DNA from: Desulfohalobiaceae bacterium
GTDB lineage: Bacteria > Desulfobacterota > Desulfovibrionia > Desulfovibrionales > Desulfothermaceae
Direction of reading: 5' to 3'
Assembly (NCBI GenBank): GCA_027013815.1
Contig: JALWFY010000111.1
Location: 46,642 to 110,641 of the forward strand
DNA: 64,000 nt
The notes under the pieces are model-generated. The model searched no databases, was not told the origin of the DNA, and saw only the letters and a program-made list of their open reading frames with translations. The translations under genes and the position numbers were made by a program. Shown piece after piece: positions 1,896 through 63,292 of this stretch; position 1 is the stretch's first letter; each line of letters starts with the position of its first letter.

Positions 1896-3161
1896 CTAGT
1901 CTTCTATATGTGGTGTGAAACCAGCAGATACAAGGGCATTTACAATTTGTTCTCTTTTTTCAAAAAATCTAGGCTCCAATAATATTCTTTTATTTTTTAA
2001 ATCTACAACTGCATTATCTATATGCAGCTCTTTTAATGCACCTTTAATGGTATTCACACAGTGTTGACAATCCATATCAGGAATCCTTAACACAAATTCC
2101 TCTCCAGTTGTTTCTATATGTGGATGATTTAAGCCTAACATATTTTTAATAGAAGAATATAAAAGCAGACATCCAAGTAGTATAGATGAACCTATACTTA
2201 TCCATAAAGGAATAGTCTCTTTTGAGGGGGAAAAAATTGTATTATTATAATGTGGCCATATGATATTTAAGATCATGCCAGATAGTATTGCAGCTATTGA
2301 TATAATCACAAGATATAACCCAACTTCCTTTTTACCTAATTCCTTTGCAATTACTGTTATAGTCACTGTATTCGTTGCAGGACCAGCTATTAAGAAAACC
2401 AATCCTGCACCTGGACTCATCCCCTTTAACATCAAGGCTGCCACTATAGGTATAGATCCTGTAGCACATATATATATAGGAATTCCAATAAGGAGCATAA
2501 TAAACATTGAAGTCCAATTAGATCCAAGATATCTGTATATAAAATTGTCTGGTATTGAATAAGTAATAATACCTCCTAAGATTATTCCAATGACAAGCCA
2601 CTTACCTGTATCCTCCATTAATTCTACAAAGGCATACGAAAAAATATACTTCAGTTTATCCATTATAGAATGGGTATGGGGCTCTATTCTAGAACAAATA
2701 GAACAAGAATTATTTACACAGCTAATATTTCTCTCTTTATCCGGGAAAAATAGATTAGTAATAATACCACATATTACTGCAGTTACAAAAGAACTTATTA
2801 CCCTAAATGCAGTAAATACAGGACCGAGTAAGGCATATGTGGCAAGAATGGAATCGATCCCTGTTGTTGGAGTAGATATTAAAAACGATAGAGTGGCCCC
2901 TTTGTCTGCCCCTTGTTTTCTAAGTGAAGCAGCTGCTGGGATTACTCCACACGAACATAGGGGAATGGGTATTCCAATTAAAGACGCATACAAAGACGAC
3001 CTTATCTTCCCTCTTCCCAGAAAAGATAATATCTTATCCTGTGGGATAAATACCTTTAAAATCCCTGCAAACAAAAAACCAAATAGGAGATAAGGGGCCA
3101 TGGTCTGGAACAAGACTCCAGACTCTTTTATAATCCCCCACCCTATATTCATGATATTCAC
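1896..3161 (-). CDS. polytopic permease (DUF318/ArsP-YraQ-like, SO_0444-type putative metal efflux) with a C-terminal heavy-metal-associated (HMA) domain
   Basis: 421 aa and very hydrophobic. CSCGVIP motif is typical of this permease family. The last ~65 aa form a ferredoxin-like HMA module with MDCQHC (MxCxxC). Confidence 0.7.
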   Translation of the reverse strand: MNIMNIGWGIIKESGVLFQTMAPYLLFGFLFAGILKVFIPQDKILSFLGRGKIRSSLYASLIGIPIPLCSCGVIPAAASLRKQGADKGATLSFLISTPTTGIDSILATYALLGPVFTAFRVISSFVTAVICGIITNLFFPDKERNISCVNNSCSICSRIEPHTHSIMDKLKYIFSYAFVELMEDTGKWLVIGIILGGIITYSIPDNFIYRYLGSNWTSMFIMLLIGIPIYICATGSIPIVAALMLKGMSPGAGLVFLIAGPATNTVTITVIAKELGKKEVGLYLVIISIAAILSGMILNIIWPHYNNTIFSPSKETIPLWISIGSSILLGCLLLYSSIKNMLGLNHPHIETTGEEFVLRIPDMDCQHCVNTIKGALKELHIDNAVVDLKNKRILLEPRFFEKREQIVNALVSAGFTPHIED

Positions 3162-12588: not shown

Positions 12589-14877
12589 ATGTTGGCAAAA
12601 AAAATTATAATAAAAGGAAAGGTACAAGGAGTAGGGTTCAGGCCATTTGTTTATAAATTGGCCATAAAATACAATATTAAGGGCTATGTGTTAAATGATT
12701 CAAGGGGAGTTGAAATCTTTGCACAAGGCACACCCAAAGACATCAATGCTTTTGAAACTCAACTAAGAAAAAAACCACCGCCTATTTCCAAAATTATATC
12801 CATAAAATCTAAGATTACATCCCCTGACCAAGCCCTAAAAGGTTTTTTAATAAAGCAAAGCAAAGGTTCTATATCCCATGAGGTATTAATCAGTCCTGAC
12901 ATAGCCACCTGTCCAGATTGCTTGAGGGAACTATTTGACCCTGAAGATAGGAGGTATTTGTTCCCATTTATCAACTGTACCAATTGTGGTCCTAGGTTTA
13001 CTATTACAAGTTCAATCCCATATGATAGAAAAAACACATCAATGTCATGTTTTTCAATGTGTGATAATTGTTATAGGGAATATACTAACCCATTGGACAG
13101 GAGATTTCACGCCCAGCCAAATTGTTGTCCTGAATGTGGCCCTAAGCTTCATTTATTGAACAATGCTGAAAAACTAATAGCCCAAGGTACTAATGCAATA
13201 GATTATGCTGCCAGAGAGCTGGCAGATGGTAATATAATTGCACTAAAAGGGCTTGGTGGATTTCACATATGTTGTGCTGCAGACAACGAACAAGTAGTCA
13301 AGAGACTTAGGGAATTAAAACACAGGCCATATAAACCTTTTGCCCTAATGGCAGACTCCATTAAAGATATAGAAGAGATAGCATATGTATCAAAAGAAGA
13401 AAAAGAAATACTCAAAGGGGAAATCAGGCCTATTGTACTTTTAAGGGCAAGGCCCAATGTATTGCCTAAGTCAATTGCCCCAGATACATCAGATTATGGA
13501 ATAATGCTTCCATATACCCCCATACACCATCTATTATTTTATTTTTACAAAAAATACATACCCCAAGATAAATTCCCCATACTTGTTATGACTTCAGGAA
13601 ACAGATCAGGGAATCCAATCTGTATTGGAAACAGGGAAGCAATATCTAATTTAAAAGAATTTGTATCCTATTTTTTAATACACAACAGGGACATACTAAT
13701 AAGATGTGACGACTCTGTTGTGAGGGTATTGGGCAAGAAAGGATTTTTATTTTACCGTAGGGCACGGGGATTTGTCCCATCCCCTGTATTTTTGAAACAC
13801 AAATTCCCAACTGTAATGGGGGTTGGAGCTGAACTAAAAAACACAGTATGTTTTATAAAAAATGACCAGGCTTTTGTATCTCAATATATAGGAGACCTCA
13901 AAAACCTAGATACATATAATTTCTTTTTAAATACCATAGACCACTACATAGATATCTTAAAGATAGCCCCCAAGGCCATTGGAGCAGATATGCATCCTGA
14001 CTATCTATCCACTAGATATGCAAAAGAGCAAGACAAACTCCCTGTTATAAGAGTACAACACCACCACTCTCATATCCTTTCTGTAATGGCAGAAAATCAA
14101 ATAGATGAAGAGGTAATTGGCATTGCACTAGATGGCTCTGGCCTAGGGCCAGATAATACCATCTGGGGTGGAGAAATTCTCTTGATAAACAAAGACCTAT
14201 CTTTTCAAAGGACGGGATATCTTAGCCCCATTAGACTCCCTGGAGGAGAAATAGCCATAAAAGAGATATGGAGAATAGGACTTTCATTTTTATATAGTAT
14301 TGGGGAAGATAATATAGAAAGATTTCTGACCAAAGTACCTATTAGAAAAAAAGAACTAATATATGATATGTTAAAAAAAGATATAAATTGCATTATAACC
14401 ACAAGCTGTGGACGTTTGTTTGATGCTGTTTGCTCCCTAATAGGGTTAAGGTCTAGTATTACTTATGAAGGTGAAGGGGCAATAGTCTTAGAGTCTATCC
14501 AAGACAAGGGCTGTGATATTGCCTATGAAATCCCCATAAAAAATAAGGAGGATAAATATATAATAAATACCCAATATTTAATAAAAGAAATTATAAAAGA
14601 CCTTATAAAGAATATACCTCCATCAATTATTAGCAGAAAATTCCACCTAGGTCTGTGTGAAGCCCTTGCAGAAACAGTAAAGAATATATCCAAGGACACT
14701 GGAATAAAAAAGATTGCACTAAGTGGTGGGGTATTTCAAAATCAAACCATCCTAGGTCAGATGATACATAAGCTCACCTCCATTGGGCTCACCCCTATAT
14801 TTCATAGATCTATCTCTCCAAATGATGAGAGTATCTCCCTTGGCCAGGCATATTTTGTGGCCAATAAGATAAAATAA
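12589..14877 (+). CDS. hypF: [NiFe] hydrogenase maturation carbamoyltransferase HypF
   Basis: 762 aa. N-terminal acylphosphatase domain (IKGKVQGVGFRPFVY). Two CxxC...CxxC zinc-finger pairs (CPDCLREL...CTNCGPRFT; CDNCYREY...CPECGP). YrdC-like and Kae1-like domains follow. Confidence 0.92.
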   Translation: MLAKKIIIKGKVQGVGFRPFVYKLAIKYNIKGYVLNDSRGVEIFAQGTPKDINAFETQLRKKPPPISKIISIKSKITSPDQALKGFLIKQSKGSISHEVLISPDIATCPDCLRELFDPEDRRYLFPFINCTNCGPRFTITSSIPYDRKNTSMSCFSMCDNCYREYTNPLDRRFHAQPNCCPECGPKLHLLNNAEKLIAQGTNAIDYAARELADGNIIALKGLGGFHICCAADNEQVVKRLRELKHRPYKPFALMADSIKDIEEIAYVSKEEKEILKGEIRPIVLLRARPNVLPKSIAPDTSDYGIMLPYTPIHHLLFYFYKKYIPQDKFPILVMTSGNRSGNPICIGNREAISNLKEFVSYFLIHNRDILIRCDDSVVRVLGKKGFLFYRRARGFVPSPVFLKHKFPTVMGVGAELKNTVCFIKNDQAFVSQYIGDLKNLDTYNFFLNTIDHYIDILKIAPKAIGADMHPDYLSTRYAKEQDKLPVIRVQHHHSHILSVMAENQIDEEVIGIALDGSGLGPDNTIWGGEILLINKDLSFQRTGYLSPIRLPGGEIAIKEIWRIGLSFLYSIGEDNIERFLTKVPIRKKELIYDMLKKDINCIITTSCGRLFDAVCSLIGLRSSITYEGEGAIVLESIQDKGCDIAYEIPIKNKEDKYIINTQYLIKEIIKDLIKNIPPSIISRKFHLGLCEALAETVKNISKDTGIKKIALSGGVFQNQTILGQMIHKLTSIGLTPIFHRSISPNDESISLGQAYFVANKIK

Positions 14878-23372: not shown

Positions 23373-24611
23373 TTATGAAAGCAGACTCCACTTGAGTAAT
23401 TGAAAGAAAAAAATACTAGTAAAGGCTGCTATGGGTACAGTTAATACCCAATAAATTATGATCTTTATAAGTACCCCAAAATCCACTGCGCTAAACCCCC
23501 TAGCCAGCCCAACACCAACTACTCCACCAACAGCAGAATGAGTGGTTGAAACAGGAAGTCCCATATTTGACGCAGTGAGCACAGTAGTAGCTGTTCCAAA
23601 ATCCACTGCAAATCCCCGGGTATTAGTAAGTGTGGTAATCTTTTCTCCTACAGTGGCTATTACCCTTTTACCAAAAAACATGATCCCAGTGGCAATACCA
23701 AGTCCACCTAAGGCCAGAAAAAATACAGGGATTTGAACCTGAGATAGAAGAGAATGATATTTTGCAATAGAATAAACAGCAACCACAGGGCCTATTGCAT
23801 TGGCAACGTCATTGGCCCCTTGAGACATTGCCACATAACAGGATGTCCCTATTTGGATCTTTTGAAATACATCCTCAACTGCCTGGGCCCCTTGTTCTAC
23901 GTTTTTTACAAACCTAGACACCCATATCCTGCTAATCCAAAATATTAACGCACCAATAACAAACACTATTGAGATACTCACCCCAAAGGGAAGCCCTAGC
24001 TTCTTTCCAAAAGGGGTCTTGTAAAAAAAAGAAAATATCACCAAGGCACAAGTGAGTACAATCCAAATAGGTACCCAAAAAATAGTGTGTTTTAAAAATC
24101 TTTTCCTCATAAGTATCTGGCTCCTTATAAGGGTAAAGACCCCAAAGGAAATAGCTGCTGCAAAAAAAGGAGAGATTATCCAGGACAAGACTACCCCTCC
24201 AAGGACCTTCCAGTTCACCACATTAGGTCCCCCAGCAACTAGACCAAATCCTAAGATACTACCAATAATGGAATGGGTAGAAGATACTGGGAGGGCAGTA
24301 AGTGTGGCAATAAACACCCAAAGGGCTGCAGATATCAGAGAGGCAAACATACCAAGCATTATTATCCTTGGATCACTAATAAAACTTGGATTTATAATTC
24401 CCTTGCTAATGGTAGCCGTAACATGGGAGCCAAAACACACTGCACCTACAAAATTCAATATACCTGCAATAAAAATAGCCTGTTTTACAGTTATTGCCCT
24501 GGCACCTACTGCTGAGGCCATGGCATTGGCAACGTCATTAGCGCCTAGATTAAAGGCCATTAGGAATCCAGCCAGTACAGAAAGCCAAAGAAAGACTTCA
24601 AACATTCCCAT
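23373..24611 (-). CDS. pit: inorganic phosphate transporter, PiT family
   Basis: 412 aa polytopic protein. Duplicated PiT signature GANDVANA (N-terminal) and GANDVANAIGP (C-terminal half). RBS AAGGAG upstream. Confidence 0.92.
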   Translation of the reverse strand: MGMFEVFLWLSVLAGFLMAFNLGANDVANAMASAVGARAITVKQAIFIAGILNFVGAVCFGSHVTATISKGIINPSFISDPRIIMLGMFASLISAALWVFIATLTALPVSSTHSIIGSILGFGLVAGGPNVVNWKVLGGVVLSWIISPFFAAAISFGVFTLIRSQILMRKRFLKHTIFWVPIWIVLTCALVIFSFFYKTPFGKKLGLPFGVSISIVFVIGALIFWISRIWVSRFVKNVEQGAQAVEDVFQKIQIGTSCYVAMSQGANDVANAIGPVVAVYSIAKYHSLLSQVQIPVFFLALGGLGIATGIMFFGKRVIATVGEKITTLTNTRGFAVDFGTATTVLTASNMGLPVSTTHSAVGGVVGVGLARGFSAVDFGVLIKIIIYWVLTVPIAAFTSIFFFQLLKWSLLS

Positions 24612-24627: not shown

Positions 24628-24855
24628 CTAAATCAAGATCTCTTTATTTTTAGACCCCTTATATTCTTCCACCACCTGGCGAACATCTTTTATGCATCAA
24701 AGTCCCTTTGGATTTAGCTCCTTGCAATTACAATTCCCATGTTTTTTCTCCATTAAAATACGCTCTAAAATAAAGGATTTACCATTATTTTTTTTCACAT
24801 CCCCGATGATATCTTCTTTTGTGTATTCAAAACAATAACACACATATTTTCCCAT
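24628..24855 (-). CDS. candidate selenoprotein: small Cys-rich CopZ-N-terminal-domain / BFD-like metal- or Fe-S-binding protein with in-frame UGA at codon 53 (52 aa if UGA is a stop, 75 aa if recoded)
   Basis: Hand translation: MGKYVCYCFEYTKEDIIGDVKKNNGKSFILERILMEKKHGNCNCKELNPKGL-U-CIKDVRQVVEEYKGSKNKEILI*. SD AAGGGGGA lies 4 nt before the ATG. The frame stays open for 22 codons after TGA (24697-24699), down to a TAG 17 nt before the pit ATG. A SECIS-like hairpin follows the TGA. Not in the ORF track because it is under 60 aa. Confidence 0.6.
24667..24683 (-). promoter_or_regulatory. candidate bacterial SECIS hairpin downstream of UGA 24697-24699
   Basis: RNA UUCGCC-AGGU-GGU(G)GAA: 6 bp with one bulged G. 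The apical loop AGGU falls at +23 to +26 from the U of UGA. Immediately 3' lies the same UGGAAGAA octamer, at the same offset, as in selD. Confidence 0.4.
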
Positions 24856-24902
24856 AATTCCCCCTTAGTTAACAAATACCCTGTGTGTGTTCAAAAAATC
24901 TT

Positions 24903-40727: not shown

Positions 40728-41765
40728 CTAAACAATTGTCAAAAAATATTTACCATTAAAATCCCTTGCCATTCCTATTTCATAGGCTATCTCATCTCTA
40801 TCCTCAAGATATGACTTTATCTCATCCTTTAGTTCAGGAGACACAGACAATATAAGTCCCCCCGATGTCTGGGCATCAAATATGATATCAACTAAAATTG
40901 GGTCTATATTATTTCCAACCTTTAAAAATCTCTTACAAAATGTTTTATTGAGATGGGATCCAACAGGTACAAGACCCATGGATGCCAACTCTTTTGCTCC
41001 TTTTAATATGGGTATCTTAGAGGACCAGAGCTCAATTTCCACTCCAGAGGCCCTTGCCATCTCTAATAAATGCCCCCCTAATCCAAAGCCAGTTACATCT
41101 GTAGCCCCCTTTATACCAAACCTCTGTATGGCCTCTGCCCCTACATTATTTAACCGGGAAGTCCACTTATATATCTCGTGTTCCATTTTTTCATATTCTT
41201 CCCATTTTGCCTTAAGAGCAGTTGCCAATATCCCTATCCCAATTGGCTTTGTTAATAATAATATATCCCCTTGTTTAACCCCGCCATTAGTAGCTATATG
41301 CTCTCGTTTAACAATACCAGTAACAGATAATCCATATTTTATTTCAGGGTCTTCTACACTATGTCCCCCAGCAAGTATAGCTCCTGATTCCTTTATCTTT
41401 GCAAATCCACCTCTAAGTATTTGCCTGAGTATATTAATATCCATATCCTTTACAGGAAAACACACAATATTCATCACACTATAGGGTTTCCCCCCCATTG
41501 CATAGACATCAGATAAGGCATTTGAGACTGCTATTTCCCCAAATTTATACGGATCATTCACTATTGGAGTAAAAAAATCAATGCTTTGAATCAAGTCAAA
41601 TCCCTCTGGACTCTCTAGAACCACACCATCTTCATTGTGTTCCATAGATATAATTAACCTCTCATCCTCTTGAGGGGTAAATTCCATCATAATTTCTTCC
41701 AGGGACCCTGGAGCAATCTTTGCTGCTCAGCCAGACGCAGAAACCTTATTTAAAAGTTCAATCAT
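40728..41765 (-). CDS. selD: selenide, water dikinase (selenophosphate synthetase), selenocysteine-containing form; in-frame UGA at codon 13 (41727-41729)
   Basis: The ORF track starts at 41690 (MMEFTP...). Upstream the same frame reads ATG ATT GAA CTT TTA AAT AAG GTT TCT GCG TCT GGC TGA GCA GCA AAG ATT GCT CCA GGG, i.e. MIELLNKVSASG-U-AAKIAPGSLEEI. This aligns with the E. coli active-site loop GCGCKISPKVLETI. The rest is the AIR-synthase-like PurM fold. Confidence 0.9.
41698..41712 (-). promoter_or_regulatory. candidate SECIS hairpin of selD
   Basis: RNA UCCAGG-GUC-CCUGGA (6 bp). The apical loop GUC falls at +24 to +26 from the U of UGA, followed by UGGAAGAA at +29 to +36. Confidence 0.45.
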
Positions 41766-61591: not shown

Positions 61592-63292
61592 TTAAAGTAC
61601 CCTCACCTTTACAACCTCATCATCATCTTCATTATGCAGGTGAATAGCACAGGCAAGACAGGGGTCAAAGGAGTGAACAGTACGAAGAACCTCCAAAGGT
61701 TTTTTGGGATCTGCTATTGGATTTCCTATCAAAGAGGCCTCATAAGGTCCTAATTCGTCTTTCTGATTTCGTGGACCTGCATTCCAGGTTGAAGGAACCA
61801 CTGCCTGATAGTTGGCAATCTTTTCATCCCTGATTATTACCCAGTGAGACAACATTCCCCTTGGGGCCTCGTGAAAACCAAATCCCTTGATCTCTCCCTT
61901 TGGAAATTTAGGAGAATGGAATGTATCATAATCTCCCTTGCCTATATTTTCAACTAGGGCGGTCCAAACCTCATCCAAGGTATCAGTTAAAACAGCAGCC
62001 CTTACAGCCCTTGCAGCATGACGACCAATTGTTGAATGGAGTGCAGAGAGTCCAATCTTTGTCCCTGCTATTTGAGACGCAATACTTAAGGCAGTATTTA
62101 CATATTTCTTTGTTGGTTTATGTCCAGCAGCATACATACACAAAACATTGGCTAGTGGCCCTACTTGAGCTGGTTTTTCTTTAAAATTCGGCGCCTTGAC
62201 CCATGAATACTTTTCTTCCACATCATAACCTGTATATTTAGGATCAGTTTCTTCCACCCATGGATGACGATTCCAATCACCGTCATACCAAGAATGTTTT
62301 ATGCATTCTTTAACATTGTCTTTAAAGAATGAGTCATTAAACGATTTAATAGGTTGAAATGTACTTAGATCACCATTTTCAATGTAACCACCTGGCATTA
62401 AGAACTTAGTGCCCTTTTCATCCATTGGAAGCTCAGGTACACTAAGATAGTTTGTCACACCAGAACCATATTTTGTCCAATCAGCATAAAAAGCACCAAC
62501 AGCTGCCACGTCCACTAGATATACCTTTTTCACAAATCCTTTAATATTATCTATCAGACTCTTTACGTACAAGAGTTGTTCCATAGTAAGGGGCGCAGGT
62601 GTATTTGGATCAACTGGATTTGCAACCCCACCAACTGCAAGGTTCTGGATATGAGGGGTCTTACTTCCCAATATAGCAACTACTTTATTGATCTCTCGTT
62701 GATAATCAAGTGCCTGGAAATAATGTGTAACAGCAAGGAGATTGACCTCTGGAGACAATTTCATAGCAGGGTGTCCCCAATATCCACTTCCAAATATACC
62801 TAGTTGTCCTGATGCCACAAATTTCCTTAACCTATCCTGAATGTCCTTAAATTCATTATAACTATTTTTGTGCCAATCTGAGATCTGTTCAGCAAGTTTT
62901 GCTGTCTTCTTTGGATCAGCCTGAAGAGCAGACACAATATCCACCCAGTCAAGGGCAGACAGCTGATAAAAATGGGTTATATGATCAAATATCCCATGGG
63001 CAGCTATTATTAAATTTCTAATGTACTGAGCATTTAAAGGGATATCCATGCCCAGGGCGTTTTCCACTGCCCTTACAGAACAAATGGCATGGACTGTAGT
63101 ACAAACCCCACATATCCTCTGTGTAAATATCCAGGCTTCCCTTGGGTCCCTTCCCTTTAAAATTACCTCTATACCCCTCCACATCTGGCCAGATGACCAG
63201 GCATTTTTTACTTCTCCACCATCTACTTCAACGTCTATCCTAAGATGTCCTTCTATTCTAGTAATTGGGTCAATGGTTATCCTCTTTCCCAT
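61592..63292 (-). CDS. hybC: [NiFe] hydrogenase large subunit (group 1, hyb-like), all-cysteine form
   Basis: 566 aa. N-terminal RIEGH and RICGVCTTVH motifs. C-terminal DPCLACAIH followed by a 15-aa extension that the maturation protease removes. Confidence 0.95.
   Translation of the reverse strand: MGKRITIDPITRIEGHLRIDVEVDGGEVKNAWSSGQMWRGIEVILKGRDPREAWIFTQRICGVCTTVHAICSVRAVENALGMDIPLNAQYIRNLIIAAHGIFDHITHFYQLSALDWVDIVSALQADPKKTAKLAEQISDWHKNSYNEFKDIQDRLRKFVASGQLGIFGSGYWGHPAMKLSPEVNLLAVTHYFQALDYQREINKVVAILGSKTPHIQNLAVGGVANPVDPNTPAPLTMEQLLYVKSLIDNIKGFVKKVYLVDVAAVGAFYADWTKYGSGVTNYLSVPELPMDEKGTKFLMPGGYIENGDLSTFQPIKSFNDSFFKDNVKECIKHSWYDGDWNRHPWVEETDPKYTGYDVEEKYSWVKAPNFKEKPAQVGPLANVLCMYAAGHKPTKKYVNTALSIASQIAGTKIGLSALHSTIGRHAARAVRAAVLTDTLDEVWTALVENIGKGDYDTFHSPKFPKGEIKGFGFHEAPRGMLSHWVIIRDEKIANYQAVVPSTWNAGPRNQKDELGPYEASLIGNPIADPKKPLEVLRTVHSFDPCLACAIHLHNEDDDEVVKVRVL

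What the first reader, a model, noticed from the sequence alone, without database searches (positions are those of the whole stretch)
24628..24855. Unlisted small gene upstream of pit: CopZ-N-terminal/BFD-like Cys-rich protein with an in-frame UGA at a metal-ligand Cys position (candidate new selenoprotein)
**Seen in the sequence**
- A minus-strand ORF with a strong SD (AAGGGGGA) encodes MGKYVCYCFEYTKEDIIGDVKKNNGKSFILERILMEKKHGNCNCKELNPKGL.
- It then hits TGA, then continues in frame as CIKDVRQVVEEYKGSKNKEILI.
- It ends at a TAG 17 nt before the pit start.

**Established knowledge (from memory)**
- The pattern VCYCxxxTxxxI ... C.C..NP.G.CC matches the Cys-rich N-terminal domain of Archaeoglobus CopZ and related small (2Fe-2S)/Zn-binding BFD-like proteins.
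- In that family the terminal CC pair supplies cluster or metal ligands.

**Inference**
- The TGA falls exactly on the first Cys of that pair (NPKGL-U-C). This is the classic Cys/Sec substitution signature.
- The same window carries a Sec-containing selD, so the organism presumably decodes UGA as Sec.
- A hairpin with an AGGU apical loop sits at +23 to +26 from the UGA.
- A selenocysteine as ligand of an Fe-S or metal site in a small chaperone-like protein would be unusual.
- I cannot tell whether this Sec form is already catalogued.
Basis: partly seen in the sequence, partly recalled or inferred. Interest (0 to 1): 0.85.

Follow-up and report, generated by a model that had tools for sequence, protein, structure and literature searches.

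The report
Known small iron-sulfur selenoprotein, mis-annotated
This is a real 75-residue selenocysteine-containing iron-sulfur-type protein that gene callers cut short at its UGA codon, but the family and its selenocysteine form are already listed in published selenoprotein catalogues, so it is a correct detection rather than a new discovery.

Summary
Window 24628-24855(-) is one 75-codon gene with an in-frame TGA at 24697-24699. The gene call held in public collections for this species stops there (52 aa).

Evidence that the TGA encodes selenocysteine:
- All 80 related loci from species-representative genomes carry TGA at this codon.
- It is always followed by the conserved C[LI]xDVR[RQ]V[VA].
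- Cys-Cys homologues exist.
- Three-base coding periodicity continues past the TGA.
- A hairpin 19 nt downstream is conserved, with compensatory changes.
- The window's selD also contains Sec, and TGA is otherwise a normal stop.

It is not a new selenoprotein. Two reviews (2022, 2026) list "(2Fe-2S)-binding protein (CopZ family) form 1" with Sec motif GxUC. This protein reads G-L-U-C.

Whether Sec ligates the cluster is unresolved. Cys54 is invariant, whereas two lineages have Arg at position 53. I therefore favour Cys54 as the ligand and Sec53 as a reactive neighbour.

The pit adjacency is shared only with the two closest relatives. 34 of 79 loci instead lie in ArsR/ArsC/ACR3/ArsP clusters with thioredoxins and CcdA. 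I found no description of that context in the searchable literature.

Verdict: new member of a known kind; interest 0.3.

The parts
24628..24855 (-). Complete selenoprotein CDS: 75 residues, with Sec at residue 53, plus the TAG stop. MGKYVCYCFEYTKEDIIGDVKKNNGKSFILERILMEKKHGNCNCKELNPKGL-U-CIKDVRQVVEEYKGSKNKEILI.
   Evidence: Family conservation across the UGA.
24859..24866 (-). Shine-Dalgarno sequence AAGGGGGA, 3 nt upstream of the ATG.
   Evidence: read directly from the sequence.
24697..24699 (-). UGA codon decoded as selenocysteine (residue 53), within the motif G-L-U-C.
   Evidence: TGA in 81 of 81 homologous loci. Cys in the CC-form homologues.
24668..24683 (-). SECIS hairpin: UUCGCC (24678-24683), loop AGGU (24674-24677), GGUGGA (24668-24673). 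There are 19 nt between the UGA and the loop.
   Evidence: In the family, 90% of cells are paired against 29-57% in the slid controls. 4 of 7 pairs show changes on both sides.
24832..24840 (-). N-terminal C-x-C (Cys6, Cys8). It aligns with Cys75/Cys77 of A. fulgidus CopZ-NT (2HU9) and, weakly, with Cys4/Cys6 of Bfd. These are predicted [2Fe-2S] ligands.
   Evidence: Invariant in alignments A1 and A4.
24724..24732 (-). Internal C-x-C (Cys42, Cys44). Cys44 aligns with Cys109 of 2HU9. Either Cys can be missing in individual homologues.
   Evidence: L038 and L060 each lack one of the two.
24694..24696 (-). Cys54, the invariant partner of Sec53. It aligns with Cys119 of 2HU9 and is the more likely obligatory cluster ligand.
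   Evidence: C in 81 of 81.
23373..24611 (-). Downstream same-strand neighbour: PHO4/PiT-family anion permease (412 aa), followed by a TIGR00153/PhoU_div protein and an HD-domain protein. It is probably co-transcribed but is not a family-wide partner.
40728..41765 (-). selD (selenide, water dikinase) with its own Sec codon at 41727-41729. It shows that the organism runs the Sec-decoding pathway.

Best explanation
Window 24628-24855(-) encodes a 75-residue selenoprotein. It is a short, stand-alone member of the CopZ-N-terminal / BFD-like (2Fe-2S)-binding family, and its Sec form is already catalogued as 'form 1, GxUC'.

Shown:
- The UGA at 24697-24699 lies inside a conserved reading frame.
- It occupies the first position of a CC pair that Cys-form homologues keep.
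- A conserved stem-loop follows at the spacing expected of a bacterial SECIS.

Inferred from the standard bacterial Sec pathway: SelB carrying Sec-tRNA(Sec) binds this hairpin and inserts Sec, in competition with release factor 2. Some 52-residue product is therefore also expected.

Inferred for the protein:
- It binds one [2Fe-2S] cluster through Cys6, Cys8, Cys44 (or Cys42) and Cys54.
- Sec53 sits beside the cluster as a highly nucleophilic, redox-active or soft-metal(loid)-binding residue, rather than as an obligatory Fe ligand.
- It acts as a small electron-transfer or metallochaperone component.

In about 43% of related genomes the gene lies in ArsR-controlled arsenic/metalloid-type clusters, next to thioredoxins and a CcdA-type thiol relay. 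In this lineage it has been placed directly upstream of a PiT-family anion permease.
For: Reading frame and motif.

Family assignment:
- NCBIfam NF047645 (CopZ_Nterm_CC), E 2.5e-12.
- NCBIfam NF045877 (CopZ_Nterm_CU (seleno)protein), E 4e-8.
- Profile hit to PDB 2HU9, E 0.005, aligning all the Cys motifs.

Catalogue entry with the GxUC motif.

Conservation:
- An exhaustive HMMER search gave 244 relatives. About 126 of the 150 listed end exactly at the UGA position (my reading of the table).
- Those that continue show CC, or W-C where TGA was translated as Trp, followed by C[LI]xDVRxVV.
- 80 of 80 genome loci have TGA there, including cultured Desulfothermus, Desulfovibrio and Hydrosulfovibrio.
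- Codon-position entropy downstream is 0.62/0.55/1.17, against 0.89/0.80/1.59 upstream. The tail is never shorter than 13 codons.

SECIS:
- 90% of cells are paired against 29-57% in the slid controls.
- C-G to U-A double changes occur in 15 sequences, and 0 of 500 shuffles reach the observed covariation.
- 70 of 79 members pass all four published bSECIS criteria.

Sec decoding: Sec-containing selD. TGA ends 9 of 42 long ORFs in the window, so it is a normal stop codon here.

Genomic context.

Ligand reasoning: Cys54 is invariant, CGA (Arg) occurs at codon 53 in two lineages, and either Cys of the internal CxC can be missing.
Against: - No selA, selB or tRNA-Sec lies in the 64-kb window.
- This member's hairpin alone is only -6.2 kcal/mol, above the -7.5 criterion. 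It passes (-9.9) only with the lower pairs that include the UGA, and its energy z-score is an unremarkable -1.0.
- No Rfam SECIS model matches.
- All sequence-family scores fall below the curated cut-offs: Pfam Fer2_BFD 15-17 bits against 26, NF047645 47 against 100.
- The fold search returned only Bfd, but weakly: E about 3, TM 0.44/0.58.
- Cluster binding, the ligand set and any link to arsenic or metals are inferred, not shown. The window gene itself is not in an ars-type cluster.
Confidence: 0.9

Rival explanations
1. Sec53 is itself one of the four ligands of the [2Fe-2S] cluster. This is the reader's reading, and it would make this a naturally selenium-ligated iron-sulfur cluster.
For: - Position 53 is U or C in nearly all family members, and U in 81 of 81 of the closest loci.
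- It aligns with Cys118 of the CC pair next to the cluster-binding residues of 2HU9.
- L038, L060 and AfCopZ each have only one Cys at the internal CxC, so at least one residue of the U/C pair must complete a four-ligand site.
Against: - Cys54, not position 53, is the invariant member of the pair.
- Two independent lineages carry a real CGA (Arg) codon at 53, and it recurs in several assemblies.
- The sister 'form 2' puts Sec at the other position of the pair (CU), so the two positions are not equivalent and only one needs to be the ligand.
- My recollection of the 2HU9 paper is that Cys119 is the ligand, not Cys118. I could not read the paper to check.
Confidence: 0.3
2. The UGA is simply a stop codon. 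The functional product would be the 52-residue peptide, and the downstream 66 nt would be an untranslated spacer before the permease gene.
For: - Gene callers annotate it this way in every public assembly of this species and in most relatives.
- This member's SECIS hairpin is among the weakest in the family.
Against: - Amino-acid conservation and third-position wobble continue for at least 10 codons past the UGA in 81 sequences.
- The frame is always open for at least 13 codons.
- Cys-form homologues read straight through the same motif.
- The truncated product would lose invariant Cys54 and the C-terminal helix.
Confidence: 0.05
3. The TGA reflects a sequencing error, a pseudogene, or an alternative genetic code that reads UGA as Trp or Gly.
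For: Many database homologues show Trp at this position.
Against: - The DNA is identical in four independent assemblies.
- TGA is present in 80 of 80 species.
- TGA terminates 9 of 42 long ORFs in this window.
- The 'W' forms come from short metagenomic contigs. Gene calling there with a TGA=Trp code is the likeliest cause (my inference), and their flanking sequence is the same GxUC motif.
Confidence: 0.02

Closest known systems
[quoted passage not shown] CDD cd10141, Sec motif GxUC, example WP_245779778.1. Listed in PMC9312934 and PMC13188914, which attribute it to Zhang & Gladyshev 2008.
   Same: Same domain family. Same Sec motif (G-L-U-C here). Sec replaces the first Cys of the CC pair. 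Bacterial SECIS immediately downstream.
   Different: I could not retrieve the reference sequence, so I cannot say whether it is the short about-75-residue architecture seen here or the longer two-subdomain one. I could not find the family under these names in the main text or supplements of the 2008 paper.
Archaeoglobus fulgidus CopZ N-terminal domain (PDB 2HU9). A Zn- and [2Fe-2S]-containing domain fused to a CXXC copper chaperone.
   Same: Residues 72-121 align with the whole core of this protein: CYC, single C, NPSGRCC. It is a cluster-binding subdomain with a vicinal CC pair.
   Different: 2HU9 has an additional N-terminal four-Cys zinc subdomain (PF18423 in the long relatives) and a C-terminal HMA copper-chaperone domain. 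It has Cys-Cys, not Sec-Cys, and one Cys rather than CxC at the internal site.
NCBIfam NF045877, CopZ_Nterm_CU: 'Csac_0668 family 2Fe-2S cluster-binding (seleno)protein' ('form 2').
   Same: Homologous C-terminal subdomain (E 4e-8, profile positions 98-157 of 161). It is also a selenoprotein, with Sec in the same vicinal pair.
   Different: Sec is the second residue of the pair (C-U), not the first (U-C). The model is 161 positions long with an N-terminal subdomain that is absent here. The score of 33 bits is far below the cut-off of 190.
Bfd, the bacterioferritin-associated ferredoxin (Pfam PF04324 Fer2_BFD; PDB 4E6K, 6E6R).
   Same: N-terminal CxC motif, a small helical [2Fe-2S] fold, and similar size. 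Bfd gave the only PDB fold hits of the predicted structure.
   Different: The Pfam score is below the gathering threshold. Fold similarity is weak (E about 3). The second ligand pair in Bfd is CxxC rather than C...UC. Bfd has no Sec and works with bacterioferritin in iron release.

Membership tests
CopZ-family (2Fe-2S)-binding selenoprotein, form 1 (GxUC) | Homology to the CopZ-N-terminal / BFD-like cluster-binding subdomain (cd10141) | tested here: met
   NF047645 E 2.5e-12 over profile positions 86-137. Profile hit to 2HU9 at E 0.005, aligning every Cys motif.
CopZ-family (2Fe-2S)-binding selenoprotein, form 1 (GxUC) | In-frame UGA within a G-x-U-C motif | tested here: met
   G51-L52-U53-C54. 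The motif is as listed in the review table.
CopZ-family (2Fe-2S)-binding selenoprotein, form 1 (GxUC) | Homologues with Cys at the Sec position and conserved flanks on both sides | tested here: met
   CC forms P0013, P0077, P0102, P0179, P0181, P0182 and others. The tail C[LI]xDVRxVV is conserved in 81 of 81.
CopZ-family (2Fe-2S)-binding selenoprotein, form 1 (GxUC) | Bacterial SECIS stem-loop downstream of the UGA: loop 3-9 nt, stem 4-16 bp, G in the first two loop positions, 16-37 nt spacing, MFE at or below -7.5 kcal/mol | tested here: met
   Three criteria are met outright. Energy is -6.2 kcal/mol for the hairpin alone and -9.9 for the 48-nt fold. 70 of 79 relatives pass all four. Covariation supports the helix.
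CopZ-family (2Fe-2S)-binding selenoprotein, form 1 (GxUC) | Host has the Sec-insertion machinery (selA, selB, selC, selD) | tested here: inconclusive
   selD is present and itself contains Sec. No selA, selB or tRNA-Sec lies in the 64-kb window. The rest of the genome was not available.
NCBIfam NF047645 CopZ_Nterm_CC (138-position equivalog) | Full-length match above the curated cut-off (100 bits), including the N-terminal zinc subdomain | tested here: not met
   47 bits, and only profile positions 86-137 are matched. The protein has no N-terminal subdomain.
NCBIfam NF045877 CopZ_Nterm_CU (Csac_0668 family, form 2) | Score above 190 bits and a C-U order of the pair | tested here: not met
   33 bits. 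The order here is U-C.
Pfam PF04324 Fer2_BFD | Score at or above the gathering threshold (26 bits) | tested here: not met
   15.1 bits for the full length and 17.1 bits for the 52-residue part. The fold hits to Bfd are weak.
[2Fe-2S] proteins in general | Actually binds a [2Fe-2S] cluster | not testable with these tools
   Inferred only from homology to 2HU9 and Bfd.

The most novel reading that the evidence does not exclude
The short Sec-Cys form is overwhelmingly the dominant form among the close relatives of this mini-ferredoxin. It may be a so-far undescribed component of ArsR-regulated arsenic/metalloid-resistance and thiol-relay clusters. Two gene orders were seen:
- ArsR - ArsC(LMWPc) - ArsP - [gene] - TauE - Trx in Desulfobacterota.
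- ArsP - Trx - ArsR - ACR3 - Trx - [gene] - CcdA - FmdE in Nitrospirota.

In this reading the selenolate beside, or bonded to, a [2Fe-2S] cluster captures or reduces a soft metalloid such as As(III). If Sec is a direct Fe ligand, this would be a natural selenium-ligated iron-sulfur cluster.
Probability: 0.25. Interest if true: 0.6.

Novelty: new member of a known kind. Interest (0 to 1): 0.3.

Why it matters
Practical value:
- This genome, and most public gene calls for the family, truncate the gene to a stub of about 51 residues labelled 'hypothetical' or 'BFD-like'.
- The stub removes invariant Cys54 and the C-terminal helix.
- Recognising the UGA as Sec restores the real protein and adds one entry to this organism's selenoproteome.

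Scientific value:
- The family is catalogued, but as far as I could find it has not been characterised experimentally.
- A selenolate placed directly beside a [2Fe-2S] cluster is chemically interesting.
- The strong ars-type genomic context in two phyla gives a concrete and testable functional lead.

Tried and rejected
- **Word-indexed protein search** with the U-to-C sequence found only the truncated self.
- **First genome scan** with exact peptides found nothing. A 17-sequence alignment was too divergent for pattern design. A 5-sequence alignment worked.
The 52-residue N-terminal part was used instead.
- **Four loci of the same species** were identical in DNA and so uninformative.
- **Rfam**, at both gathering and permissive thresholds, gave no SECIS match.
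- **Primary sources not held:** the 2HU9 paper and both Haft papers. The 2008 GOS paper does not mention the family by these names in its text or supplements.
- **'U'-containing sequences** cannot be looked up.
- **Bfd** could not be reached by profile search. hhalign aligned only the N-terminal CxC at 4% probability, so the ligand question stays open.
- **Promoter/terminator scan** was uninformative.
- **A functional link to pit** was rejected as a family feature, because only 2 of 78 related loci share it.
- **My first neighbourhood clustering** merged LMWPc-type ArsC with ACR3. I corrected this after a Pfam check.

Full report
**1. Observation**

On the minus strand an ATG at 24853-24855 follows the Shine-Dalgarno sequence AAGGGGGA (24859-24866). 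It opens 52 codons, then TGA at 24697-24699, then 22 in-frame codons, then TAG at 24628-24630. The next gene starts 16 nt later, at 24611. That gene is a 412-residue PHO4/PiT-family permease. In a working note I first placed the TGA three bases off; the coordinates given here are the corrected ones. The 52-residue stub is what public collections hold for this species (P0001, in NCBI, ENA and Logan assemblies). Four assemblies are essentially identical in DNA here, which excludes a read error.

**2. Is the UGA read through?**

*Protein-level evidence.* An exhaustive HMMER search with the 52-residue part found 244 relatives. By my reading of the table, about 126 of the 150 listed end exactly at the position of the UGA. 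Those that continue fall into three classes:
- genuine Cys-Cys forms, for example ...NPSGHCCLGQVRQVVD;
- 'W-C' forms such as ...NPKGRWCLGDVRQVVD, where TGA was evidently translated as Trp;
- a few frame-shifted read-throughs.

*DNA-level evidence.* A scan of one genome per species found 316 relatives. All 80 loci kept carry TGA at this codon, followed by C[LI]xDVR[RQ]V[VA]. They come mostly from Desulfobacterota and Nitrospirota, with some Chloroflexota. They include cultured Desulfothermus okinawensis, Desulfovibrio desulfuricans and Hydrosulfovibrio ferrireducens.

*Coding signature.* Codon-position entropy keeps its coding pattern after the UGA: 0.62/0.55/1.17, against 0.89/0.80/1.59 before it. 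The frame stays open for 13-37 codons in all 81 sequences.

*Genetic code.* TGA terminates 9 of 42 long ORFs in the window, so the organism uses the standard code.

**3. SECIS**

A hairpin sits at the same register in essentially every member. In the family it reads GUYCGCC, then a loop, then GGUGRAC. In the window it is UUCGCC-AGGU-GGUGGA at 24668-24683.

For a 7-bp helix counted on 79 sequences:
- 90% of cells pair, against 29-57% when the 3' partners are slid by 1-3 columns.
- Four pairs change on both sides, including C-G to U-A in 15 sequences. That change couples a synonymous Val change to an Asp-to-Asn change.
- None of 500 shuffles reaches the observed covariation.

Against the published bacterial SECIS criteria (PMC13188914), the window hairpin scores as follows:
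- loop and stem size: met;
- G in the first two loop positions: met;
- 16-37 nt spacing: met, at 19 nt;
- energy: borderline, at -6.2 kcal/mol alone and -9.9 with the lower pairs.

70 of 79 relatives pass all four criteria. Rfam has no matching model.

**4. Sec decoding in the host**

selD at 40728-41765(-) carries its own in-frame TGA at the catalytic Cys position. With U replaced by C it scores 333 bits on TIGR00476. No selA, selB or tRNA-Sec lies in the window. The rest of the genome was not available to me.

**5. Family**

- NCBIfam gives NF047645 (CopZ_Nterm_CC, E 2.5e-12) and NF045877 (CopZ_Nterm_CU, 'Csac_0668 family 2Fe-2S cluster-binding (seleno)protein', E 4e-8). Both fall below their cut-offs, because only the last 50-60 positions of those 138- and 161-position models are matched.
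- Pfam Fer2_BFD is below threshold.
- The only solved relative by sequence is 2HU9, the A. fulgidus CopZ N-terminal domain. The alignment gives C6/C8 = C75/C77, C44 = C109 and U53/C54 = C118/C119.
- Long relatives carry the extra PF18423 domain, and one is named 'CopZ-like zinc binding protein'. That subdomain is absent here.
- An AlphaFold model of a short CC form (pLDDT 80) is a small, mainly helical domain. Its only PDB fold hits are Bfd, and they are weak.

**6. Novelty**

[quoted passage not shown] They also list 'form 2' with motif CU. This protein reads G-L-U-C. The Sec form is therefore catalogued, and this gene is an unannotated member of it.

**7. Is Sec a cluster ligand?**

This is unresolved. 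The relevant facts are:
- The 2HU9 subdomain has five Cys for four ligand positions.
- L038 and L060 each lack one Cys of the internal CxC. One residue of the U/C pair must therefore be a ligand, and one need not be.
- Cys54 is invariant.
- Two lineages carry a real CGA (Arg) codon at position 53, seen in several assemblies. In one of them a new Cys appears six residues downstream.
- Form 2 places Sec at the other position of the pair.

I therefore favour Cys54 as the ligand and Sec53 as an adjacent reactive selenolate (about 0.55). I put a direct Se-Fe bond at about 0.3.

**8. Genomic context**

The permease adjacency is shared only with the two closest relatives, L006 and L011. By contrast, 34 of 79 loci lie in ars-type clusters on the same strand. 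Two gene orders occur in two phyla:
- ArsR - LMWPc-type ArsC - ArsP_1 - [gene] - TauE - Trx_3;
- ArsP_1 - Trx_3 - ArsR - ACR3 - Trx - [gene] - DsbD_TM/CcdA - FmdE.

I found no description of this context in the searchable literature. The Haft papers on selenoprotein neighbourhoods were not readable. The window gene itself is not in such a cluster.

**9. Verdict**

The claim of a new selenoprotein is not supported, and the claim that Sec is a cluster ligand is open. This is a new member of a known kind. Interest is 0.3.

Noticed in passing
L085-L087 (gene at L085:3001-3264) and L088:3001-3231: Two lineages of the family have a genuine CGA (Arg) codon where all others have TGA or TGY. It recurs in several independent assemblies. 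In the L085 lineage the conserved Arg six residues downstream has become Cys (DVCRV). This may be a Sec-loss route that avoids truncation.
   Followed up: partly
L005-L084, about 3 kb either side of the gene: 34 of 79 Sec-form loci lie in same-strand ars-type clusters. These contain ArsR, LMWPc-type ArsC and/or an ACR3 permease, and ArsP_1, along with Thioredoxin_3, a second thioredoxin, DsbD_TM/CcdA, FmdE and TauE. Gene order differs between Desulfobacterota and Nitrospirota.
   Followed up: partly
Its best NCBIfam match is the CysP-type sulfate permease model (131 bits) rather than PitA (62 bits), and both are below their cut-offs. Its substrate (phosphate, sulfate or another oxyanion) is not settled. 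It is followed by a TIGR00153/PhoU_div protein and an HD-domain protein.
   Followed up: partly
window 40728-41765 (-): selD is itself a selenoprotein, with TGA at 41727-41729 and the motif SASG-U-AAKI. A LysR-type regulator ORF lies immediately upstream on the same strand.
   Followed up: yes
window 1899-3161 (-): A 421-residue fusion of an ArsP_1 permease with a C-terminal heavy-metal-associated (HMA) domain. It lies about 21 kb from the selenoprotein gene and is the only ars-type gene seen in the window.
   Followed up: no
L038:3001-3201 and L060:1579-1788: Two Nitrospirota homologues each lack one Cys of the internal CxC (CNS and SQC) but keep GRUC. Cys42 and Cys44 are therefore individually dispensable.
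   Followed up: partly
L070, about 300-600 nt downstream of the gene: Downstream of the Desulfuromusa homologue lies an ORF encoding a small membrane protein with a CC motif in a transmembrane helix (...AVAALCCFTPVLVVLLG...). By eye it resembles MerT/MerF-type mercury transporters.
   Followed up: no
window 61595-63292 (-) and 12589-14874 (+): A [NiFe]-hydrogenase large subunit (full-length match to PF00374, with no in-frame TGA) and the maturation factor HypF.
   Followed up: no
public protein collections: Most database entries for this family are stubs of about 51 residues truncated at the Sec codon. A sizeable minority have Trp at the Sec position, which suggests gene calling with a TGA=Trp code on short metagenomic contigs. 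This is a systematic annotation artefact for the family.
   Followed up: partly
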